Shown here in pieces: positions 1 through 49,078 of a stretch of 49,078 bases of DNA. This DNA is from Stramenopiles sp. TOSAG23-6 (taxonomy: Eukaryota), in NCBI GenBank assembly GCA_900128565.1, contig LT635924.1, positions 1 through 49,078 of the forward strand. The letters run 5' to 3'. A program made the position numbers and the translations under genes. Position 1 is the stretch's first letter; each line of letters starts with the position of its first letter. Below the pieces are notes generated by a model. It made no database searches. It worked only from the letters and a program-made list of their open reading frames with translations, and was not told the DNA's origin.

Positions 1-74
1 ATTTATTTATTTTTTCGTACGAAATTCCGTACCTAACAAATTTTACAAAAAAAAATATATTTTTCACAATACAT
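1..74 (+). other. Non-canonical intron family copy (5' truncated by window)
   Basis: Core cgtacgaaattccgtacctaac and 3' end ttttcacaatacat; the downstream exon resumes in phase 1. Confidence 0.8.
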
Positions 75-902
75 TGGAACCAAATCTTTTAGAAGGCTAT
101 GTGAAAGTCGAACCCACTCGTTTTCATGTACGTTTTCTTATTTATTTCAAAAATGTCTTTTTTTTTTTTCATACGAAATTTCGTACCTAACAAATTTAAA
201 AATATATATATATTTTTATAATACATGATATTTACGGGAAAGGTGGAAAAATCATTCGCTGCCTCCAGGACAAACTTAATGTTAAGATAGATGTTCCGAA
301 AGACACAAAAGGTATTTCATCTAATTTAGTATCTCATCGCGTTTCGATCGTTGGTGATAAGAGTGATGTAAAAAAAGCGAAGGAGACAATCAAAAATCTC
401 ATAAAGTTCCACTATATACGTTTTATATGAATTTCTAATTTATTTTTTTTCATACGAAATTTCGTACCTAACATTTTTTTTAGATTTTTTGAAATATTTT
501 TTCACAATACATACAGAAATTACTCACCCTGGATTTACACATTCCTTGGTTGAAGTTGAAGAGTCAAAATATAGTCTTATTATTGGCATACGAGGTCAGA
601 CAATCAAAAGTATCGAAGGAGATACCAGGGCAAAAATTCATGTACGTTTTCAAAATTGAATTTTTATCTACATTTTTTTTCGTACGAAAATTTGTACCTA
701 ACAAAAAAATATTGAATGTAAAATATTTTTCATAATACATATACCCGGAAAGAATCACTCTGGTACACAGGTGATGATTGTGGGCCTTCCTGCAAACGTT
801 GCTAAGGCAGAAAAACGAGTTAAAGCGATCATTGATGATACATATTCTAACCGTTCTGCTCTTGCTGAGGATGTTGAAGTTGTTAATGATGATGAAAAAT
901 AA
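75..902 (+). CDS. Multi-KH-domain RNA-binding protein (5' partial, spliced)
   Basis: Exons 75-127, 227-415, 513-641, 741-902 (TAA 900-902). The spliced product contains KH motifs RFH|DIYGKGGKIIRCLQDKLNVKIDVP and SLIIGIRGQTIKSIEGDTRAKIH|IPG. Not visible in the ORF track because of the introns. Confidence 0.85.
128..226 (+). other. Non-canonical intron GT-AT, 99 nt, phase 0
   Basis: cat|gtacgtttt...catacgaaatttcgtacctaac...taatacat|gat; removal gives RFH-DIYGKGG. Confidence 0.88.
416..512 (+). other. Non-canonical intron AT-AT, 97 nt, phase 0
   Basis: tat|atacgtttt...cacaatacat|aca; removal gives KFHY-TEITHPG in frame with the next KH domain. Confidence 0.82.
642..740 (+). other. Non-canonical intron GT-AT, 99 nt, phase 0
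   Basis: cat|gtacgtttt...cataatacat|ata; removal gives AKIH-IPG; contains an in-frame stop. Confidence 0.88.
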
Positions 903-1991: not shown

Positions 1992-4546
1992 CTAAACTTT
2001 GTTTTCCTCATGTAGCAAATTTTTGGTCAGAGCAGCAATCAGTGCTTCGTGGTGTGGTTGTCCGCTCCTTTTCTCAGAAGTATCTGTAGATTTCCCATAA
2101 AAATCACTATAATCAATAGATGAATCGATAGAGGAATCAATAGCATGATCACCGAGAGATTTTCGCTGCTGAACGATATGATACTCCCGCTCTTCTCTTA
2201 ACTCCTCCTCGGCTGCTCTCGCTCGATTTCGTGCTGCTTGTAATTCAGCCCTGCAAGATATTAATGTCTGCATCGCTTGTGACTCTTGTGAGGATTCATT
2301 CAAATGCAACTTAACTTTATCTTTCAATTCTTGTAGTTCTGCTTCTGTTGTGCGACATTTCTCTCTAGATTTCTGTAATTCTACTCGACTATGTTCAAGA
2401 GCCACCTCATGTATTGTGAAAAAAAAAAAAACTCAAAAAAGATTTGTTAGGTACAAAATTTCGTATGAAAAAAAATAAATTTGAAATTCATAATGAAAAC
2501 GTTCCAATTCTTCTATTCCAGGTGACTTTTTCTTTAATATTGTTTCTGCGAGATGTTTCTGTAATTCTACTAAATCATTATGTACTGCCTTCTTTTTCAT
2601 TTTTTCTGTCCCTAACAATACCAATGATTCATCGAGTTGGTCAGATAATGATGCTATTTTAATCTTGAAGACCTTTTTTTCAACTATATGCTGATCAATT
2701 TTGTCTTTAGCTAATCCATGCTGTTTTTTTATATGATTTACGTGCCTTTTTAATTTTCCATGTAATTTTTCTTTATCTTCTAATTCTTTCATTGTTTCTT
2801 TGTGAATTCCTGCAAGTTCTGAATGTTCACATTGTAATCGATTTACCGATTTTTCCATAATTTCTCTATAGACTTCATGTATTGTGAAAGAAAAGTACAC
2901 AATTTTTGTTATTAGGTACAAAATTTCGTACGAAAAAAAAATAAATTCGAAATTAAAAAAAAATAATGAAGACGTACATAGTCTGAAAGTTCTTTTTTCA
3001 CTCTTTGAAGTTCTAGATGCATCTTTTTTTGAGAAATTCGTTGTCTTTCGTGCTTGCTACTATTCATTTCTGTTAATGCAGCGCATTCTTTCCTTGAAGA
3101 TTTCAATTCTTCGGAACTTTTTTTTAATTGACGCCTTGACAATTCTAATTCTTCGGAACTTTTTTTTAATTCATTCAATATATTTGATATAAAACTAAGG
3201 GCTTCATCTCCGCCGTTAAGAATGATTTTTTTTGTGTCATCTGAAAGTTTAAGTCCTTCATTTTTCTCTTCACTAATCGATTGAACTTTCTCATTTACAT
3301 TTCGTAGAGTTCGAGGCTTTCTCGGATTTCGTGTTGTTGTTGTTGTTGTTGTTGTTATTTTCGCTGAAGAAAAAAAACGTGGGTTTCTACTTCGTGTTTT
3401 TTTTACCATACTATTTTGTTTTTTAATTTCATTCTTTAGATCTTTTCCAGATTTTTTTTTTACCACTATACTCTGCTGGTCAATTTCATTCTTTAGATCT
3501 TTTCTAGAAATTAAAGAATTCTTTGGTTGTTTCGTATTTCCTTGCTTAGTTGCAGCACGCATTCTTTGTGCAAATTTCAAACAGGTTAGATTTTCTGCAA
3601 TACAACTTTGTTGGTGTGAAAGAGCTGTTATAACACTACAATGAGCTTTACACAGAACAGCACCACGAAGTACCTTGGTTATAGTCGATTTATGATATGT
3701 GGTATTTACACCTCTCTCGTCTGTAGATAAAAATGCATCCAGTGTTAATTTCCATGGTGCTGTTTTATTTTTCCCACTATTATTTGAACTTTCAATCAAA
3801 TCACTTGACGCAGATGCAATGATTAAGGTTTGAAAAGTTGATGACAAAGGTTCAGTTTTGAGCTTGTCTTCTTCATCAGATTGTAGCGAAATAGTTAGTA
3901 GTAGATGATTAGATTTACTATGGATGGAGTCATTCGAATGATTCATCGTCGTTGTAAAATATTCCTGTATACTATTCATACTACGATGCAGCTCATCTGG
4001 GCTTCTAACAGTAACTCTTGTTTGCCCAGGAACAATAAAACTTGGTTTAGAAACATCCACACTTTCATTCAAGATCTGATTAGAAATGTCCTTTTCGTTA
4101 CTCCCTGCAGCATGTGCTAAAACATCAATAACTTTATCGTCGGATAAAAGGAGCCAGGAAAAGTGAAGAGTTGAGTGGCCTTTCTTGAACATCATATCTG
4201 TTGCTAAAACTGTCATTCCGTAGGCTAATTTGTCAACCGGATCGTTTGAATGCTTTGTACTTCGACCTGTAATAATTAAAAGTGCATTCTCCCCATCACA
4301 TACTTCACGCACCAACGGCATCACGCTTTTAGAGAATATATCAGTCAAGACTGTTCGATTTGTGTGACAAGAATCCATTTCAAAGCTGTACATACAGCTG
4401 AAATCTTCCTCTGGGCAGATTACAGTATTGCCTGAAAACTTCAGAACTGCGGGTAAAACTTTACCATCCACTTCTGTGTCAGAACTAAGTGGTTCACTAG
4501 TAAGAGCACATGCAGCAATATGTGAGACCTGTGCATTTTGTGCCAT
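1992..4546 (-). CDS. Divergent kinesin-like protein (degenerate motor domain plus coiled coil), spliced
   Basis: Exons 4546-2978, 2876-2505, 2408-1992. Kinesin-like segments DIFSKSVMPLVREVCDGENALLI, SKSNHLLLTI and YHKSTITKVLRGAVL..ENLTCLKFAQRM, followed by coiled coil. Confidence 0.7.
2409..2504 (-). other. Non-canonical intron GA-AT, 96 nt, phase 0
   Basis: Minus strand ttg|gaacgttttcat...catacgaaattttgtacctaac...cacaatacat|gag; contains an in-frame stop and joins the two coiled-coil ORFs. Confidence 0.75.
2877..2977 (-). other. Non-canonical intron GT-AT, 101 nt, phase 0
   Basis: Minus strand tat|gtacgtctt...cacaatacat|gaa; gives KELSDY-EVYREIME. Confidence 0.85.
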
Positions 4547-6486: not shown

Positions 6487-6534
6487 AGAAATAAAAACAA
6501 ATAAAACGTTTAAACATTTTAGGCTGAAGAAACA

Positions 6535-7071: not shown

Positions 7072-7286
7072 TTAAGTGACTTGGAGTGTTGCTTATCTAT
7101 CTAAAGAGGTAGCTACGATGCTTTAGTAGTATTACTATACTAGAAAGGTACGCTATATTTGAAGTGAGTCCAAAGCCTCCGAGGTCAACAAACAAACTGA
7201 CTCGCAAAAATCGAAATAAATTTTGCAATACTATACGTCCTCTCAGCTCACCTTATCATGCCACTACTATAGTAAGCTAGAGAATC

Positions 7287-9704
7287 ATGATTCCCACTTC
7301 GTTTGTGTGCATGTCATGTGATGGTTCGGGGAAACGTCGTGGTAATTTGACAAAGAATGCACGGCGTATGTTACGTGCAGCAAAAATCTGGGGCAAACCA
7401 AAACCTAATGTAGAGTCTATGAGACTTGTTGTTAAGTGCAAAAGCTGTGATGGTTCGGGTCTCATTTCTGATATTACAGGTACAAGTTTGTCAAAGGAAG
7501 CGTGTGGTGCAGCACGTGATCGCGATGACTTCGTTGTTGGTGTTGCGGGTGGAGGTATCGGTGGTCTTGCTGTTGCTTTGGCTTTACAGCAGCGTGGTAT
7601 TCGTGTCATCGTATATGAAAGAGACGTTTCCTTCAATGAACGTAGTCAAGGCTATGGTCTTACGATGCAGCAAGGCGGTGCTGCGTTAGAGGCATTAGGA
7701 ATACGTTTTGAAGAAGAAAGTATATCATCTTCTGCGCATTATTCATTTAAACCTTCCGGTGAAGTTATCGGTTGTTATGGTCGTCGGCTTCGAGCTGCAG
7801 CACAAAGAGGCAGTTCAAACGAAAGTGTTGATGATGTCAGTGAAAAAGAGACAATTACTATGAGTAAAAATACACCAAAGCAGAATATGTATCATTTACT
7901 CAGGGACCCTCTCTTGAAAGTATCTATAGCAAAGAAAACGGATGAAAATCGCGGACTAAAAAGATTTCGATCGGCGGAGAAATCGACAAATACATCTGAA
8001 AAACGTGGTAATACTTGTAATACTAGTAGTAATAATAATAATAGTAATAATAATAGTATACCAATAGAAACTGAACAAAAGAAATCTAAAAAAAAGAAAA
8101 ATATAACATTCGATTCTCAGCCTCAAAAAACGAAAACTGAAAAATGTAAAAGTAGAAATAAAAACACGAAAACTGAAAAATGTAAAAGTAGAAATAAAAA
8201 CCGACATATTCCTCGACAACGACTTAGACAACTTTTATATGAAAGATTATTACCAGGTACTGTGCAATGGGGCTGCCGAGTAGTAGAATATAATGATAAT
8301 AGAATGAATAAAGTTGAACTTTCACTGTATAAGAAACAAAAGCACAAAAGTGTTGACAATGAGAAGAGCACTCAGCAAATTCGAAATTCGTTAGGTACGA
8401 AATTTGGTACGGATTCGAATCGGCCAACCAAAGAGACGATGTTTCAGCAAACAGTTTCTGTATTAGTAGGTGCTGATGGGATATTTTCAACCGTGAGAAA
8501 AGTAAAATTAGGTGATGATAAACAAAGCTTGCGTTATTTAAACGTCATGGTTATACTCGGTATTGTAGGTTTTTATTATGAATTTTGATTTTTTTTTTTT
8601 CGTAAAAAATTTTGTCCCTAACAAATTTCAAATTTTTAAAAATATTTCCTCAAAATAAATGCTCCTTGTGATTACCCAGGATATAATGAAACTGTATGTC
8701 AGACATTAGATGGTGACACGCGATTATACTCCATGCCTTTTACTAGCCCTATCCAAGAGTCTGGTGTTTATCATAATAGAAATTCATCAAATGATAATTT
8801 AAATGAAACAAAAAATTCTAATATTCCAAATGTTGTCAATTCAGCAGTTGCAGCAGTTGGACATGGTACAACTATGTGGCAGCTTTCTTTTCGAGCGACT
8901 GAAAATGAAGCAAAACAAATTGTATGTTTTATTTTTTTTTTTTGTATGAATTTTTTTTTCGTACGCAATTTTGTACCTAACAATTTTTTAAATTTTTTAA
9001 AAATATTTTTCCAAAATACTTGCTTCAACACCAAAAACTTTGAAAAGTGAAGCACTTCGTCGATGTTCGACTTGGCATGAACCGATCCCTCAGCTTTTGC
9101 AAGATACTGATTTCGAATTAGTTACTGGATATCCTTGCTTTGATAGACACCTACTTTCTGCTGAACGATGCAGAGGAGATTCTAATTCCAGGGTTACTTT
9201 TTTAGGTGACGCTGCTCATGTATCTTTTATTTTTTTTTTACAAAAAAATCGAATTTATTTTTCGTACGAAGTTTTGTACCTAACAAATTTTAGTTTTTTT
9301 TTTTGAAATATTTTTCCAAAATACATCCGATGTCACCTTTCAAAGGTCAGGGTGCAAATCAAGCGTTGCTTGATGCTGTCCTCCTCGCTCAACATTTATA
9401 TACATCAAATATAGCTACAAATGTTCGAAAAGAAAACGAGAAAATAGCGAATTCTTTGAGAAAAGCTGACAAAGTTAGAGGTTCCACAAAATATGAAATT
9501 CCTGATAGAACTGTAATTGATGCTATGGCTGCATATGAACGAATAATGTTAGATCGAAGTTCTATAAAGGTGAAGCAATCAGCTGAGGCAGCAAAAGTTT
9601 TACATATGAAGGAAGCGACAGCTGCTGTTGGGGGACAAACACGGGCAGCTGTGGCAATAGCTGCAATTCAAGGTCAGAATTTACAAACTCTGAATCATTC
9701 TTAA
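7287..9704 (+). CDS. FAD-dependent monooxygenase (group A flavoprotein hydroxylase type) with N-terminal CxxCxGxG pair, spliced
   Basis: Exons 7287-8564, 8661-8921, 9022-9219, 9327-9704. Motifs GGGIGG, LVGADGIFSTVR and, after splicing, LGDAAH|PMSPFKGQGANQALLDA. Confidence 0.9.
8565..8660 (+). other. Non-canonical intron GT-AT, 96 nt, phase 0
   Basis: att|gtaggttttt...tttgtccctaac...caaaataaat|gct; gives VILGI-APCDY in frame with ORF 8733. Confidence 0.82.
8922..9021 (+). other. Non-canonical intron GT-TT, 100 nt, phase 0
   Basis: att|gtatgtttt...ccaaaatactt|gct; gives EAKQI-ASTPKTLKSEALRRC. Confidence 0.85.
9220..9326 (+). other. Non-canonical intron GT-AT, 107 nt, phase 0
   Basis: cat|gtatctttt...ccaaaatacat|ccg; restores GDAAH-PMSP. 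Confidence 0.92.
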
Positions 9705-9767
9705 TATTAATACATTTATAAAAGAAATTGTACTATAGATTTCTTAATTTTGTTTATAGATAATCAT

Positions 9768-18700: not shown

Positions 18701-21700
18701 GAATGATCGTTCCTCTGGTGTTAGTTCATAGCTAGCTAAGCGAGCTAACATTACTTTTGCATCAGAGTCACAAAATTTACCAGAATTTGAAAAGTGTGTC
18801 TTCTTTGTGATCTTACAAAAAGGAGTAGTCACAGTCGGAAAAGAAATCAAATGTGATTTTTGCTTCTGTGCTTCATTATAATTGGATGTGGCATTATCTG
18901 AATTAACTTCGTTAGTTTTACTTTTATATTTTGATTCTTTTGATTCGAATGACCTTTTAAAGCTTATAGCATCATAGTCAAAATTATTTAGAAGTTTTCC
19001 ATCGCTGCTCCACATTAATGCAACATTGTTAGGGGGGCCTACAGCACCCCATGATTCACATCCCTCGAGACTACTTTCTGTAACCAGCCCAACCGAAACG
19101 CGCCCTAAATAATTAGATTCTATTCGAATTTCAAAATAGTCCGATGGTAAATATTTAAAAATTTCACCATCATCACATTGTTTTTCCCAAACAGCATCTT
19201 GACCATCGAAAACGCTTTGCTGCATTTCAGATGACGAAACTAAACGAGATAAACCTTGTGATGGAATGCAGAAGATTGATTTATTTAGTTGGGAACTCGG
19301 CCATGCGGTTCCAATCACACCACCACCAGAATCTATATCAGAAGGTGTTGCATGCCTGATGAGAATAAAATCTGTCATCTCGTTTTCAATACCAACATTA
19401 GTCGTAATATCTAATGTAATTGATTTCGTAAATTTAGATATATTACCTAAAATTGATTTGACCTCTTTTGTGCCACCAATTAGCGGTATCCTTGCTTCAT
19501 ATGATAATCCAGATACTTGCAATAATTTCATGAGTAAAGCATCTTTGTTGCCAAACTCATTGAGAATTTTTACAGGGTTTGAAGCAATACGGCACAATTC
19601 ATCAATAAAGAAGTTACAACTATTATTTTTCATACTCATTTTTGATCCAACTTCCGACAGCATAGCAATCGGTGCGGCTGGGTTCGGTAGAAGTGATCGA
19701 AGCACACACATCGCTTTCATGCGAAGCATCCAAAATGTGGCCGATGGAATCATATATGTCATGGATTGCTCATTCGTGTTGCTGAATTTTATTAGATGTG
19801 CAAGTCTTTGTACAAGTGTTTTTACTTGATCCACTGGAAAATTTTCAACATCCAGTGCTGGTGAAACTGCTGGCGTTAATAAATTGAGTGGTATAGTTTC
19901 AATTGAAGTTCCATCGCCTAATGCTACCATTGCACTAGTTCCAGGTTGAATGAATCTTACCACAGTTCCAACTTGTGGCATACCTGCGTTGTCGATGGGG
20001 GCAACATTAACCTGAAAGCCAACACGAACAGCTTCCATATGAGCACCCAAAACATCTAATGCAGATCGCGTCATACGTAATTTGTGGCGTATTTCGGAAG
20101 ACTTCAGAAGAGATGCATCACAGGAAGGTGTAATTCCTAAATCATATATTGAACTAACTTGTTTGACTAAAATGTTTAATGTAAGTTGCGACCATATCTT
20201 AGAACGTTGGAGGGCACGAACCACCATGACCAACTCTGCAGAAAATTCCGATGCACATGTTCGAGAAAAAATATTTCAAATTCGAAATTTGTTAGCCACA
20301 AAATTTAGTAAGAAAAATGAATAAATTTGAAATTTATGATGAAAACGAACACTGGGAAGAAGGTATAGCATGGGGTTCCGTGTAACCATCGGACGCATCA
20401 TCTAAATAATAATATGATGTAGATTTCCCAATTAATTCAAGTAGCGAACATACGACGTCTTCTGCCGTCCAGTTAACACCAAGTGCAGAAGAAACAATCT
20501 CTGGGTCAATGTAGGGTAATGCCTCACAAAGTACTCGAATAACTCTCCTGCGAACATCAGGAGTGACGAGTGTGAATCCGGCATTGATATGTTTGTGCAA
20601 CAACAAAGGCACCGAACTTAAATGTCTGGGCGAATCACAGTTTTGTAAATGTTTATGAGGCGGTGATCTAGTTGCAAATCTACCACCTACCATTGATAAA
20701 AGCAGCCGTAATGTATCACTATCGCACACACGAGATCTCCCTACTGGTGATCGTACACAATGAAATAATAGTTGAAGTAGCCAATCGACACCTTGACTTG
20801 TTATTCTTCCAATTTCACCACCTGCCGCGGGCTTGCTACGAAAGGCATGGTGCTTCACCCATTTTTGTAGTTTTGCATAGGACAGCGAATCAGAAGTTTT
20901 ATCATTCAAAGATAAAGGTTTTATATGTAATGATCTAATCCAAGAGTGCATACCATGAGTAATTTCTTCTTCAGATTTTGATGAAAACGAAGGTGGCAAT
21001 GGTGGAGCACCCACATAAATAGGCGGAACATTAATTTCTCGTTCATTGGAGTTCACTCGTTCAGTGGCAGATTTTGGGTAAGAAATACAACTGCTTCGCA
21101 TGATTCTTAGCTCGTCATGAGGACCTTGACATTTCAGATCCATCATAGTTGCATGTGGAGGAACGCTTTTGTTACGCCATACACGCACCCCACCAATCCA
21201 ACCAGAAAATGTTAGTTTAGGCGAAAATAAAGAAAATCCTATACCTAAGTACCCACCAGTAGGTGGTACGGGTTGTCTTGCATCTTCCTGGAGTAGTTTG
21301 TTAAATACTAGAAGTTGACCATCAATGTATATGCATATTTCTTCCGATATGCTGTCATATATAGCACATATGTGATACCATTTCATTTCTTCCAATGTTT
21401 CATCAGGATTTGCTGGGTTGAATGGGCATAATGTGTTATTATCAGATCTGGTTTTGGTTTTGGAATTTTCAGTTACAAATATAAATTCAACAGTTGTTTT
21501 GTTCATTCGAAGTTCCCAGCCTGTTTCAGTACCATTCGTCGACAAAATTGGATTTTCGAATGTTTTGTCTGAAATATCCGATATACTTTCAATGCGAATC
21601 CAGACATGGGCTGTAACTGAATCATTATTATACATTACAATGTCACCCATATCTTGGTATTTAACCTCTTTTAGATTCCTTGTGTCATGAATGTATGCAA

Positions 21701-24700: not shown

Positions 24701-27700
24701 AAGGACCATCCAGTAAAGTTCTCGCACAGCGACCAGAAATCCATGCAAGTGTGATATGTAATTCACGTACAATGGTCCAAGCCCGTGCTGTTTCGGAATG
24801 AATGCTTAGATCTTGCATAGCTGCTTCCATTGCAGCCTGTGCCATTGCTTGTGCTCTTCTTGTTGCTGGAGATTCTTTGTTTATTGGTGATCGAACTATT
24901 ATCTGTGCAGCAAATACAGTCGTCCCCTTTTCATTATGACTTGCAGAGTATCTGCGGTAAGTGATTATATCGCCTTCTTTTGGAGGCCATGTTACAGGTG
25001 CATCTTGAGGACAATACCATGCAGCTCTTCCTATCACGTCATTCCCTGGTAAGCGCACTGATATATTAATATTTCCTTTCGGGTTATAAAAACCAATATA
25101 GTTTCCAGAAGTTATAGATATAAAAGGTTCTTTCAATTTCAAGTTAAGGCGACCCGTTGGGTAAACAAATGAACTACCATCTGCATTTTGCCCTGTTACT
25201 AGTGCCTCTGGCAAATGTACTTCTTTACATGCTTTGATAGTAAATTTCTTCGTCTCTCCGTCTACCAATTGAGCAGTATATATCATTATCGAGCTTGGAT
25301 TCCCTACAGGAGCTTTTTCAAAGCGGATAAATACATCTGTAATCACACCTGACTTTTCTGCGGGGAAATCCAGTATAAGATGACCAGTTCCCCATGCGGA
25401 TGTAGTAGCAAATATATCCGGGCCAACACGGCATAATATTTCATCTTTTCCTGTGATCGAACCCATTACATCTACAGCGATCGGCGCTCCACCGCTAGCT
25501 TCAAGATCCAGAAGACCACTTTCAGGCATTTCTTTAACAAGTTCACCACATGTAGCGAAAAGTTCACTTAATGGGCCCAATAGTTGCTCCGACAGCTGAC
25601 ATCTACATGCGAATGCTGACAGGGCTGTAAATAGTGGTAACGTTATTGATGAAATAATCGATGGTGAATCTGTAATATTCTGAACAATAGTTGCGCGAAT
25701 TTCTTGGAGGTGTTGTTTCGACGATCGTAATGATTCAATGCCAGAAATTGCCTCACATAGTAGATCTCGCGCTGCATTTGCACATCGAATAGCATGTGAC
25801 AAAATAATGCGACAAGCATGTGACATGGGTTGTTTAGTTCCACTTTGACTTTTCTCAAACCCTTCCAAAGTACAGCAGCACAAAACTTGGACTTGAATAG
25901 CGCCAAGGGACAACAATGCAGACTTTTCAATATCATCATATTCTAATTTTGGGGATTTACCTTCCTGAATATATTTTAGAGTCCTCAATAAACGTAATTG
26001 TGCACCCTGTAAAGTTCGCGATAGAAGTGATTGAAGTAAATGATTCAAAACACAAGCATCGGGGTTATGCTGTCGTGGGGTAATTGTCTTTCCTGCTTCA
26101 TTATTTTGGTCGAACTTTTTATTTTCATCTATGATTAATTCGATTACTAGCTTACGTGCGGTTGATAGCTTCGTAAAGCACTGCAGCAAACTTGAAAGTA
26201 AAATATTTGCACTTTCTCTATTGCTTACAATTTGAATTGTATCAGATAGAAGCTCTCCTTGTTCGGCTGCCGTTGGATAAAACAAATCGAGGCCTGCGGA
26301 AATTACCGTACACGCTTCCGTTCGAACTTTTTCCCATGGTTCTTTTGCTTCAGTAGGTTTTGACTTTATGATACGGATTATTTCTTTCCGCAATTCAATA
26401 ACTAAATTAGACCCATATATTATATTTATTCCAGCAGATAAAGCTGAGCGTCTTACACTATCAGATAGCTGCAAAGATTCAACTGGATGTCGACTCATAA
26501 TAAGTTGATGTATTTTGGAAAAATATTTAAAAAAAAAATTGTTAGGTACAAATTTCGTACGAAAAAAAAATCGAATTTGAAAAAAAATAAAACATACATG
26601 TACGTGGACCTTTAGCAATTGAAGACACGAGAGTACTATATAGAAGTTACCTTCATCGGTTGCTAAATTGTCTTTCAACAAAATCAATAATTGGAAGAAA
26701 GTATCACCTGATAGATCATATCCAAGAGGTACAGATAGGAGGCTTGTCCTTTTCGACTCTTGGTCAACTTCTAAAACTCCAGAAGGACCGAATGCTTCAG
26801 ATAATTGAACTAGTCGCGCAAGAAGTGCAAATCCAGAATCAGCAAGAGAAATGCATTCACTCCCTGTAACAGACGTAATGACATGTTTGGATCCCTTAAA
26901 TACGAGATTTGATCGTTCATGCTTAGTTAACATCGAAGGAGGTTTAATTTGAACTGAATTATTAAAACATGCTGAATTATCCCCTATTGTTTCTAATATT
27001 GGAATTCGCCCAATGGGCGTTCCTGCATTTGAATATCGTTCAAGCAGAAGCTTTTCACACACTGTATTACTGTTTGAGGAAACTCTACTCATACGCCATA
27101 CGCTATTACCATTCCAATCATAACAAACACCAGCCCCTTCGAGTCCATTTGTTGGCCCTGATTGAATACAATAACTACTTAAAAGTCTCCCACTCACCAA
27201 GCAAAATACATAACAAACATTCCATATATTTTCTCCAATATCATGTGAAGCGGGTACTATGACAAGTTCATGCCCATTTGTAAACATTGTAGAGCTTTGC
27301 GTCCAATCCTTATCAATAAAATTGAGTTGACTCAATGGGGCGCTTTTCCTATGTGGCATCTCTCGTATAGCAATTGCAGATACACATGGCCGAAGTCCTT
27401 CAAACTCTATGCACATTGAAATGTTTTCTCGTTTACTTTTTTTCACAATGTCGGTATACCGTTTAATATCAAAACAAACTGGAAAATGATATTCAACAGA
27501 TTTAAATTTCCCTCCTAATTCTTGAAATGGCCTAAAGTTTGCCATAACTGTGCACCCATCAATAACTACATTAAATCGACGCTCAGTGCTATCAAATGTA
27601 CAAAAACTAACTGTGACCATAAAGTAGCATGTATCTGCCGTACCCCTATGACTCGGGGTTTCTATTGGAATGTCATACTGAAATTTCATTGTATGTGATC

Positions 27701-31012: not shown

Positions 31013-31285
31013 TTTCCTACTAAAATATGTCAAAATTTTGATTTTGTTTTGTTACGTACAAAATTTTCTACCAAAAAAAAAAAATGTAGATGAAAATGAA
31101 GTGATGGCTAGCTAAATAGAGTTCTAGTATAGATTTCCTACTATAATTAAATACAATTTAACCAATACAAATCTAATTTATAACACAATAGTGAATTAAT
31201 ATAAAATAATAATTTAAATTTCTCACATCATTTGAAAATCAATTTACTACAAAATTCCATACCTAACAAATTTCAAAAGTCTTTA

Positions 31286-32539
31286 TTACCCCCATTTTTT
31301 ATTCCTTGAAGATTTCTGCCTTGTATCAGAATAAGCACCACTTTCTCCAACAATCACAGTTTTACTGACTCGACGTCCATCGTCAGATTTTTTACGATCA
31401 TCAACGACATTTTGTATTGTGAAAAAATATATATTTTTTTGTTAGTAAAAAAAATCGTTAGGTACAAAATTTGGTACGAAAAAAAAATAAAATTTTGATG
31501 AAAAAAGTACGCTATCTCCTCTAGTAGCTTGTGCGACAGTCTCGGCCGCAATTTGAAGTGCCTCCCTCAAAGTCTCAACTTCATTCTTGTATCTTTGCAT
31601 CATCGTTTCGACATGTTTTCTTGCCTCATCCTCCTTTTGGACATTTTGCATCCTCTGCTCAAGTAGAAGTTGTACTTCAGCAACTTTTTCATTGGAAACA
31701 TCAAGCATAATTTGTGAACAAATATTTTTTTTGTTTTTTTTTTGTTAGGTACGGAATTTCGTACGAAAAAAAATAAATTCGAAATTGAAAAAAATAAAAC
31801 ATACATAATTTGAAGTTCTGTACACTTTGCTCTACTCGTAGCTAAAATTCGCCAAAAAAATTCGCAGACCTCGCCACAAGCGTAATATTCCAAGCATTCT
31901 TAGACTGATACTATATCCATGAGAGTGTTGATATAATGAGATACTAATAATTGCCATATCAGTAAAGTAACCAAGGTGAAGAAATACACGAAATCCAAAA
32001 CAAACACATAAGAGTGACAATTCTGTCACAAATATACACTGTGTTATATGCAGGACAATAGACACAATTAACTGTAGATTAATAAAATCAGGAGTAGACA
32101 ATCCAAAGCGTATACCAGAGACCATTAAAAGTGATATGACAACTGCGCATATGTCTACAATTGTGACAACAACTAAAAAAAGTTGCATGAGTGTCGTTTC
32201 TAATGAGCTTCCTATAATGTATCGAAGGCTTAGTCCAGAAGAAGCATGCTTATGAGTTGATTCTTTCTCTGTCACATTTTTCATTTTATCTGAGTGAGTA
32301 GAGGATTTTTTTTTCCGCTGCCTTAGTTCTGATCCTTTTATCTCATCATGATCAGATTCGATATCTTCGTTTTCAACTTCTTCGTCATCTGCTTCTTCAC
32401 CTAATTTATCTTCGTTTTCTACTGTTGCATCATCCAATGAGTTCTTTAATTTCCTTTGCTTCTCATCGCGCTTTCTTTTCGCATCCCATTGACTATAATC
32501 CAATTCGCGCCCATCATTCATCAAATCCTCATCAACCAT
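31286..32539 (-). CDS. Hv1-like voltage-sensing-domain protein with C-terminal coiled coil (spliced; 1-nt frameshift in an A7 run)
   Basis: S1 Asp (VVTIVDICAV), S2 F..E, S3 Asp and S4 LRLWRGLRIF. Exons 32539-31805, 31706-31511, 31411-31286; needs one A removed at 31854-31860. Confidence 0.7.
31412..31510 (-). other. Non-canonical intron GT-AA, 99 nt, phase 0
   Basis: Minus strand agc|gtactttttt...cgtaccaaattttgtacctaac...cacaatacaa|aat; the 3' end is set by alignment to the family, and the next exon is open to TAA at 31288-31286. Confidence 0.7.
31707..31804 (-). other. Non-canonical intron GT-AT, 98 nt, phase 2
   Basis: Minus strand at|gtatgtttt...cacaaattat|g; gives ELQIM-LDVSNEK. Confidence 0.8.
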
Positions 32540-39017: not shown

Positions 39018-39403
39018 ATCCTACCCCTAACCCTTTATGAGAAACTATAAAAATATATAAAACTACAGTGATTTATTATAGAAAAATATATAGAACGAAA
39101 GTGATGTATTACGATTTAGATATGGAGATTTTAAAGTTTTGCTTTTTTCTTTTCTTTTCTTTTTTGATTCGGTAAATAAACAAATTTCAAAATCAAACAA
39201 GATCATATCGTAGTACTAGGTAGGTAGGGTACCGGGTCCAAAAAAGTTCAACACTATTTTTGCTACCAAACGTAAAGTATTTTCATTAGGTACGAAATTC
39301 CGTATACAAATTTGACTTCAGAGATTCAGCCCAAAATGATGTGATCCACTTCTTCTCTACTATCGCACGCTTTTATCGTAGTAGAAATAGTATTTACTTT
39401 GCG

Positions 39404-40852: not shown

Positions 40853-43800
40853 GGAAGTCGTCCCCCCTATACCGGCCACTTTTGATTTTGTACGAAAATC
40901 AGTACCTAAGCAAAACTGAACAAAAAATGTACGTTTCCTATTCCGGCCGGTACTATGATAAGATCGAAAAGATACTTTTTTTCTAAGACTACGTAGGTAA
41001 GTATATAAGTGTTCCTATGAATAAAAGAGTATTTATTAAATTAATCTTAACATCTTGTTCTTTTGTATCACCCACTATTGTACCAACTTCACGTTAAAAA
41101 TTTCTACGCTTCGCTATCGTTGTCGCTTTCACTCTCAGACTCGCTTTCGGATTCGGATTCGCCTTCGCCTTCAGATTCATCATCCGTTTCGCTATTGGAA
41201 CTTTCACTATCAGATATTTCTCTATTAGAACTCTCGCGATCTCGTGCAGGCTCGTCGAAACAACTCTCGCAACAAACCCATCTACTGGATTTGCTTTCAT
41301 ATCTTGGTATTTGTAAGTCAATGTTTACGCCACAGCAGTTGCAAATGCAAACATCTCCAGACAACTCTCCAGACTCCGTAAAAATAAGCTCCTCCTCACT
41401 AAATTCATGACGACGCAATGCTTTATGTTTTTGTAATTCATCATATGTATAATCGGTAGATCGATCTTGGGTGCTTGCCCACCTAATTGTGTATTTTTCA
41501 TTTTCATAACTAACTACTGTTGCTTCTAACCAATCACCTTTCCAAAGAGCCAATACTGATTTGTGATTCATAAACCATTCATGATTTTCTTTTTTCTTTG
41601 CTTGTCTTGCTTTTTCTGCTTTGCTCATTTTTTTCTTTACGACGTATTGTTTTTTATTTCTAGAATTATACTCATCTAGAAAAAGCTGCTTAAGTTTCTT
41701 CGAATCAAATTGAATTGGTTTGTTTGAGCCATTTTCTTCCGACACAGAAATCTTCCATGAGAGAAGAATTGCTTTATAATCATTTTTGTATAGTGTTTCA
41801 TTTGATTCCATTTTGCTAATTGCACTATCAAGTATTTCTTTTTCTCTTGCTTTTTTTTGTTGAACTCTTTTTTCTTGTGCTTCTTTCTCTTTCTTTTTTT
41901 TCTCTTCTCTTTCTACAACTGCAGCAACAACATATTTACATTTATACTTAGCCTCATATTGCTCCTCAAATACTGCCTCTATTTTTGTTTTAGCAATCTT
42001 TGAGAGTTTTTTTCCATCTATATTATCTATTCCCCAACTCTCAAGAATTGCACGATGTTTGTTTACAGTAAGACTCTTTTTAGCATTCATGTCTTCAACA
42101 GCTTCCTCACGTAGTTTCATTTTTTTACGGATTAATTCCTGATCTTTAATAACTTTATCTTTTTTCTTTTGCTCTTTATCTTTTTTCTTGTCATCTCTAT
42201 TCTTTTGGACAGCTTTAACTTGTTCTAATTGTTCCGCAAGTGAAAAATCTGCACCATGAGAAGTATTGACACCTACTCTTTTTCTTTTATTTTTTTTTCT
42301 TTTTTGTTCTTCGGCATTTGCGCGTCTTGTTGGTTCAAACATCCCAGTCTCCAGAGATTCATATACTATACTTCTAATAACAACATCTCTTTCAAGAGGA
42401 ACTTTATATATCAAAACTTTGTCTGCATTTTCAGGTTTATTCCGTGGTGATACGCGAAGAGGTTTTGCTATATCTAAGTCTTTCGGAGCTTCTTCGAGGT
42501 AACTAAACATATCGATAGCCGTTTGCCAACTGGAATTATAACGGTCAACCGGATAAACACCGCACCTTTCAAACGCTCTTGTGACAATATTACCAACTTT
42601 AACTTCTTCAAAACCAAGTATATTGTTTTCCATGTACATATCATACCCATTTTTTTTAATTCGTGAGTCAATTAATTCTTTCTTTAGCCTTTCTGTAACT
42701 GTCATCCATGAACGACTGATAATTTTGTTATAGTCCGAGATCGAATACTTATTTGTATAGTTTAATTTCTTCCAATCATCAACTAACACTGAATATGCTG
42801 CACGGAGCATAGAATTGATCCCAACATCATTTGGTTGAGACCAAGATGATGTATGCGACGCAAGACAAAAGGGAAATACGTTATTATCCCGCAGTGTCTT
42901 CATTGCTGCCATTGACCACCGAGAAGCATGCCCATCAAAAGTCAAGATGACAGGTTTTCCATTCTTTCCGTATCCTTCTGGCAGTCCTTTGACAAACCAC
43001 TCACAATAACGCTTAAAAATTTCAATAGTCATAGAACCACTTGTAGAAACTTCCACTCTCCAGCCATTTGTCGAAATATCCGAATTAGGGTCACCTTTCC
43101 AAATAGGTTCGTCTAGTTCAAAGCCTGATAAGTGGTTTTGGTTTCTTTTTGGATTAGTTACACCAGGAGATGCGTGAATCACCATTGATGGTAAAATTGC
43201 TCCATCAGCCCTTGAAGTAACTACACATGTAGCATGGAATTCCGGATGATCTGAACCAAGTTTCGATCTCTTTCTTTTCTTTTTCCCTCCTCTATTAGGA
43301 ACATGAGCTTTACCAACAACTTTATTCCGCTTTCCATCTTCTTTTCCTCCAAACTCATCCATGTTGTAAATTTGTTTTGAAAAATCATTAACATCAAATT
43401 TTCCAGGAAACTCTTCTCCTAACCTCTTTACCAAACTTTCCAACTTCGAAAACACGGCATCTCTGACTTTGGTATTGGCCTTTTTTGCTCGTTCAAAGCT
43501 CAGAACTGCAGTTTTGTACTGTTTTAACTTCGGGTGACGCTTCAAGAATCCATGAACAAATGACCGTGTGCAGCCTTTCTCATACCCTAGCCTTGTAACA
43601 ATATGACTGGCAAAAGAGGTGATTTGTTCAATAGTCATTCCTAGACCAAATCCATCCATTTGTATTATAATTTGTTCCAACCACAATTCTTCATCATCAG
43701 TGAAATACCGCTTGAAATTTGGGTTTCCTGTTGATTTCAGTTCAAATTCCTCATTAATCAGACGAGTCATTCTTTTCTTGGTTTGTTTACCAATTTTTTT

Positions 43801-45098: not shown

Positions 45099-48084
45099 AT
45101 GACAGATAATATGTTACAAGATTGGGGTCAATTTACAAACGTAGTACGTGATACGGAAAAGCCTAGTTTAGGCCAGGTAAGTAAAGAGCCTTCGAATCAT
45201 AGTTCATTAAACGAAACCCAAAAGCAACATTCTATCATAGAACCATTTAAGGATGCTAATTCTACAACTTCTACTATAAATGATCGCAAAGACGATACAC
45301 AAATTAGATCTTTTTCTAACTCAAATTTGTTGACCACTACCCCCTCTTGCCCTAGTTTAAAAAATCTCAGTAGTGTTGCTGAATCAAACGTATCAACTCT
45401 TTTATCACATAATACTTCAGTAAATACCAATGATCTTCAAAAGAATCGAATAAATGGAGATTCATCATCAAATTTGGGTGTATCCAAAGTCCATCCATCT
45501 TGTCCAGATATGAAGGCACTTGCTCAAAATAGGGTAAGTCAGTCACGACAGACCCGAATACACCTCAGTGAAGCAAAAGCTGCATTATTTAGACACTCAC
45601 TCACCGGGGTCTTAGTAAAACGAGGTTTCGGAGGATTTAAGCGATGGGTACCAAGATATGTGACTTTGCGAGGGCGTATGCTCTCCTATTACACATTGAA
45701 AGATTCCAAAAAATGTGATATTGTTCGTTTTCATCATGAAATTTCGATTGTTTTTTTTACCTACGTTTTTTTTCGTAGACAATTTTGTACTTAATCATTT
45801 TTTTACTAAAATTTTTTTTTCACAATACTTGATTCTGTACACGCCAGAGGAGTTTTGGAACTTACAAAACATACAGTTATTAAAGCTGTACACTTCGATA
45901 CAAATGTATGTTTTATTTTTTTTTTTTCAAAAAAATCGAATTTTTTTTCGTACGAAATTTTGTACCTAACGAGTTTTTTTTTGAAATATTTTTCTAAAAT
46001 CCATATCGCTAATAGTCAATTTGGTATAAAGATTATTCCTATCAAAGAAAATACTTTAAATAATGATTTATATGACACTCAAACTCCAGGAGGCATAGAA
46101 CCGAATTTTTGTACTCAAAATAAAAATTCATTTGGTTGGTGGCGTGATAGAGCTTCATCAGCCCAATGTCCTCTACAGTTTGTTGATGAGTCCTTCAAAA
46201 ATAGTAATAATATGACGGATAACTCCAAAATAATAAAGCAAAGAAACAAAAGTATGCCTCCTCCGACTCGATCAGTCATCTCTAGTAAAAAGTTGTGGAT
46301 GTACATTTTCATTATTTATTAAAATTTGATGTTTTTTTTTGTACCAAAATTTGTACCTAACTAAAAAAAAATTTGAAATTGTTTTTCATCATTTATTTCA
46401 AATGTATTTGTTTTTTCTTTTTTTACGTAAAATATTTTTGTACCCAACGAATATTAAATATATATTTCAATCTATATGTGTATTTTTTCACAATATATGC
46501 TCATTGCAAGATCTGCCGACGAGCAGAATCGATGGTTAGAAAATCTTGCAAAAGTAATCCAATTGATATCACGTGTTGAAGAACCTGCAACACTTCGTGG
46601 CATGGGTACAGTCTATGATCATTTTTTTGTTGGTGAAATTTTAGGTCGTGGAAGATTTGGAATTGTTAGAGAATGTATACATAAAACAACAAATAAATTA
46701 TACGCATTAAAAATGGTTAATAAAACGAAAGCGTTCACCGCTGAAGGATTAGCTGCTCGAAGAACACTTCACAATGAATTAGCTGTTTTGAAACGATTAA
46801 AACTCGTCCTCGGACCTCATCCAGCTATATGTAATACATTTGAAGTATATAATGATAAATTTATTACTTATATTGTACTTGAGCATTTAGGTGGAGGTGA
46901 TTTATTTGATAGATTAGTTCAATTAGGAAAATATACAGAAGCAAATGCATCCACTTTGACGCGACAGTTACTCACAGGATTACAAGAATTACATCGTCGA
47001 AATATTATTCATCGCGATGTCAAGCCAGAAAATATTTTATTTTCATCAAAAGATAAAAACAAATTAGACGTAAAATTAGCTGATTTTGGTTGTGCCTTGA
47101 TTCTGAAACGGAACCCTAATGTACGTTTTTTATTTTTATCATGATTTTTTTTTACAAAGAAAATTTAAAATTTTTGTACTTATGAAAATTTTGTTGTACT
47201 ACAAAAAATATTTTCCCAAAATACATGCAAGTCAAAGACGGACTCAAAAGTTTCTGGATCGAACAATCGTAGGGACACCTGGTTATATCGCTCCAGAAGT
47301 GATACTGAAGTGTGAATATACTCCAAAATGCGATGTGTGGGCTGCAGGAGTGATATTATATATAATGCTTGTAGGCTATGTACGTTTTATTTTTTTTTTT
47401 AGTATGAATTTTTTTTTCATACGAAAGTTTGTACCTAACGATTTTTTTTTGAAATATTTTTCCAAAATACATCCTCCTTTTTATGGTAAAAATGAATGGG
47501 AAATATTTGAAAGAACAAAGCGTGGTTGCCTTAAATTTGATAATTCTGATTGGAAAGGTATATCTAAAAATGCTGTTGATCTCGTACGAGGAATGTTATG
47601 TGTCAATCCAGAGATTCGTTTGTCAACAAAACAGATTCTACGACATAATTGGATTATAGAGCCACCTTCTTCAAAACTTTTACCAGACACTCTTTCGCGA
47701 TTAACGAATTTGAATACACGAAGAAAAGCAAAAGAAAAGATGAGAAAATCAATGGAAATCGTCCCAAATACAATGAATACAAAAAATACAAAAAATACAA
47801 AAAATACAAAAAATCAAGAATCAGTAAAACATCAAAACTATGAAAATTGTACAAAATTGAATGAAATCGAAAGAAAGCAAGAGGAAGTGAGTAAAGAAAA
47901 TTTTGAAATTTCGAATACTCGAATGGATCAAACCAAACGACTAACACCAAAAGATATACGCCATGTAGATCAAAAATGTGACACAGTAAAACCATCAAAA
48001 AAAGCAACACCTGGCAGTTTGAATTTTACAGACAAGGAAATTGCAGAAATTAGAAGTAAAGTGAAATTTCGATCTATGGGATGA
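45099..48084 (+). CDS. PH-domain CAMK-family Ser/Thr protein kinase, spliced
   Basis: Exons 45099-45722, 45831-45905, 46005-46300, 46499-47120, 47227-47379, 47473-48084. PH motifs GVLVKRG..KRWVPRYVTL and ARSADEQNRWL; kinase motifs GRGRFG, HRDVKPEN, DFG, GTPGYIAPE and LVGY|PPFYG. Confidence 0.9.
45723..45830 (+). other. Non-canonical intron GT-TT, 108 nt, phase 0
   Basis: att|gttcgtttt...ttttgtacttaat...cacaatactt|gat; gives KCDI-DSVHARGVLEL within the PH domain. Confidence 0.82.
45906..46004 (+). other. Non-canonical intron GT-AT, 99 nt, phase 0, in frame with no stop
   Basis: aat|gtatgtttt...cgtacgaaattttgtacctaac...ctaaaatccat|atc. Confidence 0.82.
46301..46498 (+). other. Compound non-canonical intron (two tandem family units), 198 nt, phase 2
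   Basis: at|gtacatttt..ttgtacctaac..caaat gtatttg..ttgtacccaac..cacaatatat|g; gives KKLWM-LIARSADEQNRW. Confidence 0.75.
47121..47226 (+). other. Non-canonical intron GT-AT, 106 nt, phase 0 (degenerate core)
   Basis: aat|gtacgttttt...cccaaaatacat|gca; joins the DFG and APE parts of the activation segment. Confidence 0.87.
47380..47472 (+). other. Non-canonical intron GT-AT, 93 nt, phase 0, in frame with no stop
   Basis: tat|gtacgtttt...ccaaaatacat|cct; restores the CAMK motif LVGY-PPFY. Confidence 0.92.
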
Positions 48085-49026: not shown

Positions 49027-49078
49027 ATGTATTGTAAAAAAAATTAAATTCGAAATTTGTTAGGTACAAAATTTCGTA
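49027..49078 (-). other. Non-canonical intron family copy (truncated by window)
   Basis: Minus strand tacgaaattttgtacctaac...tttacaatacat|gt, phase 1. Confidence 0.78.

What the first reader, a model, noticed from the sequence alone, without database searches (positions are those of the whole stretch)
8920..9021. 2-bp direct repeat plus GTA..TAC inverted ends: Introner/MITE origin and an unresolved splice register (GT-AT vs AT-AC)
Seen: in 15 of 19 complete introns the last two exon bases equal the last two intron bases. This is AT/AT in 13 and TT/TT in the two copies ending aatacTT (8922-9021, 45723-45830), so the terminal dinucleotide co-varies with the insertion site as a target-site duplication would. 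The element proper is GTAY...ATAC (short inverted ends). The junction can therefore slide 2 nt, giving mostly AT...AC introns (15 of 19 end in AC). Four junctions discriminate: 2409-2504 (Leu vs Tyr), 8565-8660 (Ile vs Asn), 20257-20350 (CAG vs CAA) and 31412-31510 (Ser vs Lys). VILGI at 8565 looks more natural than VILGN, favouring GT starts (inference). A spliced-out 2-bp TSD would make insertion scarless for the protein.
Basis: partly seen in the sequence, partly recalled or inferred. Interest (0 to 1): 0.85.

Follow-up and report, generated by a model that had tools for sequence, protein, structure and literature searches.

The report
Repeated introns that break GT-AG rule
A marine protist genome carries many copies of one 100-base intron that starts with GT but does not end with AG, and whose last two bases repeat the two exon bases before it, as a jumping element would leave them.

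Summary
The 49-kb window holds 19 complete and 2 cut copies of one ~90-108-nt intron family (one intron holds two units), all in the sense of their host genes. Removing each copy together with one copy of its flanking dinucleotide joins open frames in 19 of 19 cases. The last two exon bases equal the last two intron bases in 15 of 19 (13 AT, 2 TT), more than the base frequencies give (permutation P = 0.004).

The register question is largely resolved. At the one junction that protein homology can decide (8565-8660), 97 of 118 homologs have Ile and none Asn, so that intron starts at GT. The family's first six bases match the classical 5' splice signal. The introns are therefore GT...AT (twice GT...TT), not AT...AC and not minor-type.

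The family meets the working definition of Introners, but not of MITEs: the inverted ends are only 3-4 nt, and no transposase element with these ends lies in the window. A 2-bp target-site duplication is the best reading of the repeat, not proven.

The closest named proteins carry a label I read as a MAST-3 stramenopile. No paper found describes this family. Similar systems are known in Fritillaria, Amoebophrya, Micromonas and euglenids.

The parts
1..74 (+). Family copy cut by the window start (3' part only); ends ..ATAC+AT at 74
   Evidence: nhmmer E 2.7e-11; model-to-sequence map
128..226 (+). Intron, 99 nt, AT/AT, phase 0
416..512 (+). Intron, 97 nt, AT/AT, phase 0; first base is A instead of G
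   Evidence: flanking exons open in frame
642..740 (+). Intron, 99 nt, AT/AT, phase 0
2409..2504 (-). Intron, 96 nt, starts GA; flank TG against end AT (discriminating: Leu or Tyr)
   Evidence: RNA contig record 25 of X9 leaves the genome at 2503 (weak hint)
2877..2977 (-). Intron, 101 nt, AT/AT, phase 0, in a kinesin-like gene
8565..8660 (+). Intron, 96 nt, GT..AT, flank TT (discriminating: Ile or Asn); homologs decide for Ile, i.e. a GT start
8920..8921 (+). Exon TT that is repeated as the last two intron bases (9020-9021)
8922..9021 (+). The intron of the finding: 100 nt, GT..TT, phase 0, in an FAD-monooxygenase gene
9220..9326 (+). Intron, 107 nt, AT/AT, directly after the His of the GDAAH motif; carries an unused AG after the branch-like motif
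   Evidence: His in 100 of 101 homologs, no gap within 5 residues
13869..13960 (-). Intron, 92 nt, AT/AT, in the giant HECT/SPRY gene
20257..20350 (-). Intron, 94 nt, GT/AT flank mismatch, phase 1; its ends form a longer inverted repeat
26508..26597 (-). Intron, 90 nt, AT/AT, in the giant HECT/SPRY gene
31412..31510 (-). Intron, 99 nt, GC flank against AA end (discriminating: Ser or Lys); an AT-ending site 3 nt further is also in frame
31707..31804 (-). Intron, 98 nt, AT/AT, phase 2; the ATAC motif has decayed but the terminal AT is kept
45723..45830 (+). Intron, 108 nt, TT/TT, phase 0; second co-varying copy, in a different subfamily
45906..46004 (+). Intron, 99 nt, AT/AT
46301..46498 (+). 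One 198-nt intron made of two family units (46301-46403 and 46404-46498); only removal of the whole keeps the frame
47121..47226 (+). Intron, 106 nt, AT/AT, in the protein kinase domain
47380..47472 (+). Intron, 93 nt, AT/AT, in the protein kinase domain
48618..48718 (-). Intron, 101 nt, AT/AT
49027..49078 (-). Family copy cut by the window end (3' part only)
31023..31088 (-). Decayed copy downstream of the stop codon of its gene (outside coding sequence)
   Evidence: nhmmer E 7.6e-06
8377..8411 (-). Core-only fragment, antisense, inside a 96-nt in-frame segment (8351-8446) that homologs lack
39275..39305 (-). Core-only fragment, antisense, upstream of the DnaJ gene
   Evidence: nhmmer E 6e-4
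40878..40916 (+). Core-like fragment inside the left end of the pogo-like element
   Evidence: nhmmer E 8e-4

Best explanation
These are Introner-type elements: one family of ~100-nt, AT-rich (16-22% GC) spliceosomal introns that spread through the genes of a MAST-3-like stramenopile.

Each copy brings three things:
- a strong 5' splice signal (GTAYGT followed by T's);
- a strong branch-like motif (GTACCTAAC) 34-46 nt from the 3' end;
- a conserved 3' block that ends in ATAC.

The piece removed from the RNA starts at the G of GT and ends two bases past the ATAC. Those two last bases copy the two exon bases in front of the intron, mostly AT. I read this as a 2-bp target-site duplication made when the element was inserted into DNA at AT (preferably AT|G). 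Splicing removes the element plus one copy of the duplication, so the protein is left unchanged.

The intron therefore ends in AT (or TT) instead of AG. The 3' cut seems to be placed by the conserved context rather than by an AG.

Shown: the family, the exact excised unit, the co-variation, and the GT register at one junction. Inferred: removal by the spliceosome, insertion at the DNA level, and how the 3' site is chosen.
For: - **Family.** There are 21 strong nhmmer matches (E <= 1.6e-8) among 32 rows, and all 21 lie in the sense of the host frame. Mean pairwise identity is 0.71 against 0.56 for shuffles, and up to 0.87 between unrelated genes.
- **Excised unit.** The frames join in 19 of 19. 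The automatic test passed 17, and the flanking short exons of the other two were checked open in frame.
- **Collinearity with homologs.** The three junctions of the FAD-monooxygenase gene are collinear with homologs. His follows in 100 of 101 homologs with no gap at 9220.
- **GT register.** Ile appears in 97 of 118 homologs and Asn in 0 at 8565. G at +1 is found in 18 of 19, T at +2 in 18, G at +5 in 16 and T at +6 in 19, which matches the classical U1/U6-read signal (established knowledge). One poly(A)-library RNA contig follows the exon to 2503 and then leaves the genome. A GT-register product would do this and a -2 product would not, but the contig's remaining letters were not shown.
- **Non-AG 3' end.** The last base is T in 18 of 19 and -2 is A in 17 of 19. 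Four copies carry an AG after the branch-like motif that is not used.
- **Duplication.** There are 15 of 19 matches, permutation P = 0.0044. The TT/TT pair has P = 0.018 and occurs in two different subfamilies.
- **Target preference.** AT precedes the intron in 13 of 19, against 9.6% background. G follows it in 12 of 19, against 29%. Phase 0 holds in 16 of 19.
- **DNA-level insertion.** The two-unit intron 46301-46498 fits a second insertion at the terminal AT of the first. Core fragments lie in antisense or non-coding places.
- **One more copy.** L001, a metagenome contig, holds another copy with AT/AT.
Against: - No spliced RNA was seen. The RNA contigs laid on 20 kb gave no listed joint across any of these introns.
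- The co-variation rests on two TT/TT copies, and 4 of 19 junctions do not match.
- In all four exceptions the intron still has A at -2, and in three of them T at -1. The terminal AT may therefore be a splice signal in its own right.
- The inverted ends are only 3-4 nt, and RNAalifold finds no pairing.
- No autonomous element with these ends lies in the window.
- No full-length antisense or intergenic copy was found, only ~30-nt core fragments with weak E-values.
- The register is settled by homology at one junction only.
Confidence: 0.5

Rival explanations
1. Same intron family and same GT...AT register, but no target-site duplication. The AT before the intron and the AT at its end would be two separate requirements: an exon context and a 3' splice signal, like AG|GT...AG| in ordinary introns. 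The family would have spread by reverse splicing, or by insertion with a preference for AT|G sites.
For: - In all four junctions without a repeat the intron still has A at -2, and in three of them T at -1.
- All full copies are in the sense orientation and inside transcribed sequence.
- The inverted ends are minimal and no hairpin is found.
- No transposase partner is present.
- Ordinary introns show the same kind of look-alike repeat (established knowledge).
Against: - Both introns that end in TT follow an exon TT (P = 0.018), and they belong to different subfamilies.
- The permutation test, which keeps base frequencies, gives P = 0.0044.
- The tandem two-unit intron and the antisense core fragments fit DNA insertion better than reverse splicing into mRNA.
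Confidence: 0.27
2. The register is two bases to the left. The introns would then be AT...AC (the TT copies TT...AC), removed as AT-AC introns by the major or the minor spliceosome.
For: AC occupies -4/-3 in 15 of 19 and AT precedes GT in 13 of 19. AT-AC pairs are a known compatible terminal pair (established knowledge). The copy at 416-512 lacks G at +1 and would be a clean AT...AC intron in this register.
Against: - At 8565-8660 this register gives Asn, where 0 of 118 homologs have Asn and 97 have Ile.
- It puts the classical GTAYGT signal at +3 to +8 instead of +1 to +6.
- No minor-type 5' motif is present.
- The branch-like motif lies 34-46 nt from the end, not the 10-20 nt of minor introns (the minor-intron spacing is recalled).
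- The contig that follows the exon to 2503 would have diverged at 2506 (weak).
Confidence: 0.08
3. The copies are not removed by the spliceosome. They would be removed either by a structure-guided, euglenid-like 'nonconventional' route, or cut out of DNA like ciliate internal eliminated sequences, with the 2-nt repeat serving as the excision pointer.
For: The borders are non-canonical with a short direct repeat and short inverted ends, as in euglenid nonconventional introns and ciliate eliminated sequences (review PMC11282704, passages; the ciliate comparison is recalled). No spliced RNA was seen.
Against: - The copies keep a near-perfect 5' splice signal and branch-like motif at a fixed spacing. 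Neither alternative route would need these.
- There is no end-pairing structure (0 pairs).
- The flank is AT, not TA.
- The copies are abundant in RNA libraries (intron bins at summed depth 900-1800 against 6 or less in exon-only bins), so they are transcribed or present in bulk DNA.
- No nuclear dualism is known for this group (recalled).
Confidence: 0.07

Closest known systems
Non-canonical introns of the tunicate Fritillaria borealis (Henriet et al. 2019, known to me only through PMC11282704 and PMC13326754, passages read)
   Same: Many recently gained, transposon-like introns that escape GT/AG. Their 3' ends include AT and AC. A flanking exon repeat forms the 3' splice site. They are processed by a changed major spliceosome.
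   Different: There the commonest borders are AG-AC and AG-AT, so the 5' GT is lost. Here GT and the whole 5' signal are kept (18 of 19) and only the 3' end is non-canonical. Here a single family dominates. The host is a stramenopile, not an animal. Nothing is known here about U2AF or the snRNAs.
Introner elements of Amoebophrya (PMC7789003, passages read)
   Same: Repeated non-canonical introns in a marine protist, with direct repeats that overlap the exon/intron borders and inverted repeats at the ends. No clear transposase partner.
   Different: Amoebophrya has 3-5-nt direct repeats and 8-20-nt inverted repeats that fold into a hairpin, with no constant terminal dinucleotides. Here the repeat is 2 nt, the inverted ends are 3-4 nt, no hairpin is found, and the 5' and branch signals are strong and constant.
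Introners of Micromonas, Aureococcus and other algae (Gozashti et al. PMC9860276 and PMC12130899; review PMC11282704; passages read)
   Same: Short non-autonomous elements in unrelated genes, flanked by a target-site duplication. The element plus one duplication copy is spliced out, and one splice site is taken from the duplication, so insertion leaves no scar in the protein.
   Different: Those families keep GY-AG borders and have duplications of 3 bp or more, often with clear inverted repeats. Here the duplication is 2 bp and supplies a non-AG 3' end. The surveys dropped families with unfamiliar splice sites unless RNA support was seen.
Euglenid nonconventional introns (review PMC11282704, passages)
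   Same: Non-canonical borders, TSD-like repeats at the junctions, and a suspected MITE origin.
   Different: Euglenid introns lack a 5' signal and a pyrimidine tract, and they rely on end pairing. Here the 5' signal, the branch-like motif and a T-rich tract are all present, and no pairing is predicted.

Membership tests
Introner elements (working definition: sequence-similar introns in unrelated genes) | Many introns in unrelated genes share sequence | tested here: met
   21 strong nhmmer matches. Mean pairwise identity 0.71 against 0.56 shuffled, and best pairs 0.87 between different genes.
Introner elements | Each copy is an intron: its removal restores the reading frame and the protein | tested here: met
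   Frames join in 19 of 19. Three junctions are collinear with homologs. No spliced RNA was seen.
Introner elements | Target-site duplication at the borders (present in many families, not all) | tested here: inconclusive
   2-nt repeat in 15 of 19, permutation P = 0.0044. The co-variation rests on two TT/TT copies.
Introner elements | Recent gain: presence/absence between strains or species | not testable with these tools
   No genome is held. Only one extra locus was found. Relatives are available as proteins only.
MITE (non-autonomous TIR DNA transposon) | Terminal inverted repeats of about 10 bp or more | tested here: not met
   Only GTA(Y)/(R)TAC, 3-4 nt. RNAalifold finds 0 pairs. One copy (20257-20350) has about 7 nt.
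MITE | A transposase-coding partner with the same ends | tested here: not met
   The DDE_1 element (~40851-44666) has other inverted repeats and TA flanks. All family ends pair up in ~100-nt units. Only this window could be searched.
Minor (U12-type) AT-AC introns | 5' motif of the minor class and a branch motif 10-20 nt from the 3' end (recalled definition) | tested here: not met
   The 5' positions read GTAYGT+T's. The branch-like motif lies 34-46 nt from the end.
Minor (U12-type) AT-AC introns | AT...AC termini | tested here: not met
   Possible only in the -2 register, which gives Asn at 8565 where 0 of 118 homologs have it.
Hairpin-type non-canonical introns (Amoebophrya introners, euglenid nonconventional introns) | Stable pairing of the two intron ends | tested here: not met
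   Consensus fold of 19 copies with flanks gives 0 pairs and energy 0.
Hairpin-type non-canonical introns | Non-canonical borders with direct repeats across the junctions | tested here: met
Fritillaria-type non-canonical major-spliceosome introns | Removal by a modified U2-type spliceosome (divergent U2AF, snRNA changes) | not testable with these tools
   No genome or snRNA is at hand. The Rfam scan of the window found nothing.

The most novel reading that the evidence does not exclude
In this stramenopile lineage nearly the whole intron set would be one Introner family. The 3' splice site would not be read as a dinucleotide at all: the cut falls a fixed two bases past a conserved ..AATAC block, on whatever the 2-bp target duplication put there (AT, TT, perhaps AA). 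That would be a major spliceosome that keeps textbook 5' and branch recognition but has given up AG at the second step. It would also mean that current gene models for the group are systematically wrong.
Probability: 0.3. Interest if true: 0.8.

Novelty: new variant of a known kind. Interest (0 to 1): 0.62.

Why it matters
- It adds an independent lineage, a heterotrophic marine stramenopile, to the few cases where transposon-like introns carry non-canonical borders. This variant is unusually clean: the 5' and branch signals are textbook and only the 3' dinucleotide is free. That makes it a good natural test of what the second splicing step really needs.
- It is a compact example of a target duplication supplying a splice site, so that insertion leaves no scar.
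- It has a practical cost. A public gene model of the same or a very close organism (P0121) is wrong at all three family introns of one gene: residues are lost at two and intron-derived residues are added at the third. A paper on single-cell genomes of this group reports few predicted genes for MAST-3 assemblies and does not mention unusual introns (PMC5778133, passages). Whether the two facts are linked is my inference.

Tried and rejected
- **RNA evidence.** Four metatranscriptome runs (X6-X9) were laid on 560-20559. No listed joint spans any family intron, and the listed joints are cross-matches between copies. 15 joints and 370 loose ends were not shown, so this says nothing against splicing.
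- **More copies.**
  - The metagenome scan with a 20-base core pattern gave 1 locus (L001).
  - The viral and prokaryote collections gave 0.
  - No genome is held.
- **Second discriminating junction.** A protein search with the kinesin-like exon found nothing at E <= 1e-10. The junctions at 2409-2504 and 31412-31510 lie in coiled-coil tails, so homology was not pursued there.
- **End-pairing hairpin.** Rejected.
- **TA duplication with shifted borders (Tc1/pogo style).** Rejected, because the empty site would then need six extra bases that homologs do not have.
- **3-nt duplication (ATG).** Only 10 of 19 match.
- **Pogo-like element as the autonomous partner.** Rejected on its ends.
- **Rfam.** No match in the window.
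- **Earlier-findings tool.** It was closed.
- The table was then made from coordinates.
- **Literature.** Searches found no description of this family. The supplementary tables of the Introner surveys (PMC9860276, PMC12130899), which list the species examined, could not be opened and may bear on this.
Full report
**What the window is.** The window is eukaryotic and gene-dense, with 30-40% GC in 2-kb windows and mostly long single-exon reading frames. Pfam finds a GDA1/CD39 phosphatase, a kinesin-like motor, an FAD monooxygenase, a giant HECT/SPRY/malectin protein, DnaJ proteins, a Ras GTPase, a PH-kinase and a DDE_1 transposase. No genome is held for it. The best named relatives of two of its proteins carry the EukProt label GSMAST32. 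I read that label, from recall, as a MAST-3 (Nanomonadea) stramenopile. One of these models (P0121) matches the window's translation exactly over its first 176 residues, so it comes from the same or a very close organism.

- A 15-base core motif occurs 24 times against 0.5 expected.
- A profile built from 19 copies gives 32 rows. Of these, 21 are strong (E <= 1.6e-8), 5 are intermediate and 6 are weak echoes.
- Mapping the profile onto the sequence gave coordinates for 19 complete introns and two copies cut by the window ends.
- Each complete intron is 90-108 nt, except one of 198 nt that holds two units.
- GC is 16-22%.
- Mean pairwise identity is 0.71 against 0.56 for shuffles, and the best pairs (0.87) lie in unrelated genes.
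- All strong copies are in the sense of their host frame.

**The excised unit.** I removed each copy from the G aligned with GT up to two bases past the aligned ATAC. This joins long open frames in 17 of 19 by an automatic test. In the other two the test had picked a longer frame by accident; the short exons beside them are open in the expected frame. The result is therefore 19 of 19.

For the FAD-monooxygenase gene, homologs from other organisms run straight across all three junctions. At 9220 the His of the GDAAH motif is followed without a gap in 100 of 101 homologs. No alternative with an AG end can give these proteins.

**The repeat.** Exon -2/-1 equals the intron's last two bases in 15 of 19: 13 AT and 2 TT, the latter at 8922-9021 and 45723-45830. 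Re-pairing flanks and ends among the introns gives a mean of 11.3 matches, with P(>=15) = 0.0044. Both TT ends fall among the three TT flanks (P = 0.018). The two TT copies belong to different subfamilies, so the TT end arose twice. A further copy on a metagenome contig (L001) is AT/AT.

AT before the intron is far above background: 13 of 19 against 9.6%, P = 9e-10. G follows the intron in 12 of 19 against 29%. Sixteen of 19 introns are in phase 0, which is more than the phase distribution of AT|G sites in coding sequence predicts (55%, P = 0.007).

**The register.** Only four junctions can tell GT...AT from AT...AC.
- **20257-20350:** synonymous, so uninformative.
- **2409-2504 and 31412-31510:** both lie in coiled-coil tails, where homology cannot decide.
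- **8565-8660:** lies in a conserved strand. The GT register gives Ile and the -2 register gives Asn. Of 118 homologs whose alignment spans the site, 97 have Ile, 15 Arg, 3 Phe, 2 Tyr, 1 Met and none Asn.

Two further points agree with a GT start. First, the first six intron bases in the GT register are the classical 5' signal: G 18, T 18, A 16, C/T 18, G 16 and T 19 of 19. In the other register this signal would sit two bases out of place. Second, a poly(A)-library contig (X9, record 25) matches the exon up to 2503 and then runs on unlike the genome for 35 letters. The two extra matched bases equal the first two bases of the next exon, as a GT-register product would give. The remaining letters were not shown, so this is only a hint.

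I put the GT register at about 0.85.

**What the copies carry.**
- After the 5' signal comes a T-rich stretch, then a partly palindromic core.
- The motif GTACCTAAC follows, with its branch-like A 34-46 nt from the 3' end in the 17 single-unit copies that have it.
- Next come a T-rich tract and a conserved end, with -7 to -1 each conserved in 16-18 of 19 copies.
- Four copies contain an AG between the branch-like motif and the end that is not used.
- There is no minor-class 5' motif.
- RNAalifold finds no pairing in the 19 aligned copies. The ends can form at most a 5-6-bp AU-rich helix. One copy (20257-20350) has changes on both sides that keep that helix, and another (45723-45830) breaks it.

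**Origin.** The working definition of an Introner is met. A MITE is not shown:
- The inverted ends are 3-4 nt.
- The only transposase element here (DDE_1 frame 41104-44346, inverted repeats at 40851-40877 and 44640-44666, TA on both sides) has other ends.
- Every consensus 5' end pairs with a 3' end about 100 nt away.

Several things still favour insertion into DNA with a 2-bp duplication:
- the co-variation described above;
- the two-unit intron, which reads as a second unit inserted at the terminal AT of the first, and in which only removal of the whole 198 nt keeps the frame;
- core-only fragments in antisense or non-coding places, at 8377-8411, 39275-39305, 40878-40916 and 31023-31088.

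Against it, in all four non-matching junctions the intron still has A at -2 (and T at -1 in three), which suggests that the terminal AT is itself under selection as a signal. I put the duplication at about 0.6 given the rest.

**How it probably works (inferred).** The element inserts at AT, preferably AT|G, and duplicates the AT. Transcription then gives a pre-mRNA in which U1/U6 and U2 find textbook 5' and branch signals. The second step joins the exon to the base two positions past ATAC, so the element and one AT leave together. The A at -2 (17 of 19) and U at -1 (18 of 19) may still make the contacts that AG makes in other organisms. The one copy that starts with A instead of G also ends in U. 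How the site is measured is open.

**Comparison with known systems.** The principle that a target duplication supplies a splice site, so that insertion leaves no scar, is established for algal Introners (PMC9860276, passages; review PMC11282704, passages). Non-canonical, transposon-like introns are known in three groups:
- Fritillaria borealis, whose 3' ends include AT and AC and which has a modified U2AF (PMC13326754 and PMC11282704, passages);
- Amoebophrya, with 3-5-nt direct and 8-20-nt inverted repeats that form a hairpin (PMC7789003, passages);
- euglenids.

The present family differs in four ways: it keeps a canonical 5' end and branch motif, it has only a 2-nt repeat, it has no hairpin, and its host is new.

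**Whether it is in print.** Six full-text searches found no description of it. I also read passages of a paper on MAST single-cell genomes (PMC5778133) and of one on Incisomonas (PMC12614181, where 'intron' occurs 0 times). The species tables of the Introner surveys are in supplements that I could not open. The 2025 survey states that families with unfamiliar splice sites were discarded unless RNA support was seen.

**Abundance.** In two RNA libraries, bins that hold family copies reach summed contig depths of 900-1800, against 6 or less for exon-only bins. About 1,100 contigs per run were laid, mostly on the copies. This suggests very many copies in the sampled communities. It cannot separate unspliced RNA from carried-over DNA or from relatives.

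**Verdict.** The finding is a real and striking feature. The Introner reading is supported, the MITE label is not, and the register question is mostly answered in favour of GT...AT. It is a new variant of a known kind rather than a new kind of system.

Noticed in passing
window 40851-44666: A pogo-like DNA transposon. It has a 1080-codon open frame with a DDE_1 domain on the minus strand (41104-44346), imperfect 27-nt inverted repeats at both ends, and TA on both sides. Its ends do not match the intron family.
   Followed up: partly
window 40878-40935: The left end of the pogo-like element holds a ~57-nt stretch that its right end lacks. The stretch contains a look-alike of the intron family's core and, 27 nt later, of its 5' end. 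It may be an old fragment of the family inserted into the transposon.
   Followed up: partly
window 8351-8446: A 96-nt in-frame, stop-free segment of the FAD-monooxygenase gene that the five closest homologs lack. It starts GT, ends AG, and holds the family core in antisense (57% identity to a family copy, shuffled maximum 0.569). It is either an exonised antisense copy or a canonical intron. One RNA-library contig (X8 record 20) runs through it unspliced.
   Followed up: partly
window 39275-39305: Another antisense core-only fragment of the family, upstream of the DnaJ gene (nhmmer E 6e-4).
   Followed up: no
window about 31850-31875 (minus strand): The frame of the gene upstream of intron 31707-31804 breaks at a run of seven T. 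Both frames look coding, and the upstream part has an arginine-repeat helix like a voltage sensor. It is either a homopolymer error in the assembly or a real frameshift.
   Followed up: no
P0121 against window 7287-9701: The public gene model of the same or a very close organism is wrong at all three family introns. It reads into the intron and loses residues at 8565 and 8922, and it adds intron-derived residues before the Pro that follows GDAAH at 9220.
   Followed up: yes
window 44598-44611; L001 about 2275-2345: Short telomere-like CCCTAA/TTAGGG repeats (two units) lie in non-coding DNA, once inside the pogo-like element's right end and again downstream of the gene on the metagenome contig.
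   Followed up: no
window 44690-44817: A 62-nt tandem repeat (2.1 copies, 93% matches) lies just outside the right end of the pogo-like element.
   Followed up: no
window, all 19 introns: Sixteen of 19 family introns are in phase 0, more than the phase distribution of AT|G sites in coding sequence explains (55%, P = 0.007).
   Followed up: partly
window 75-900 (plus strand): One small gene (KH-domain-like by eye) carries four family introns within 750 nt, with exons of 53, 189 and 129 nt between them.
   Followed up: no
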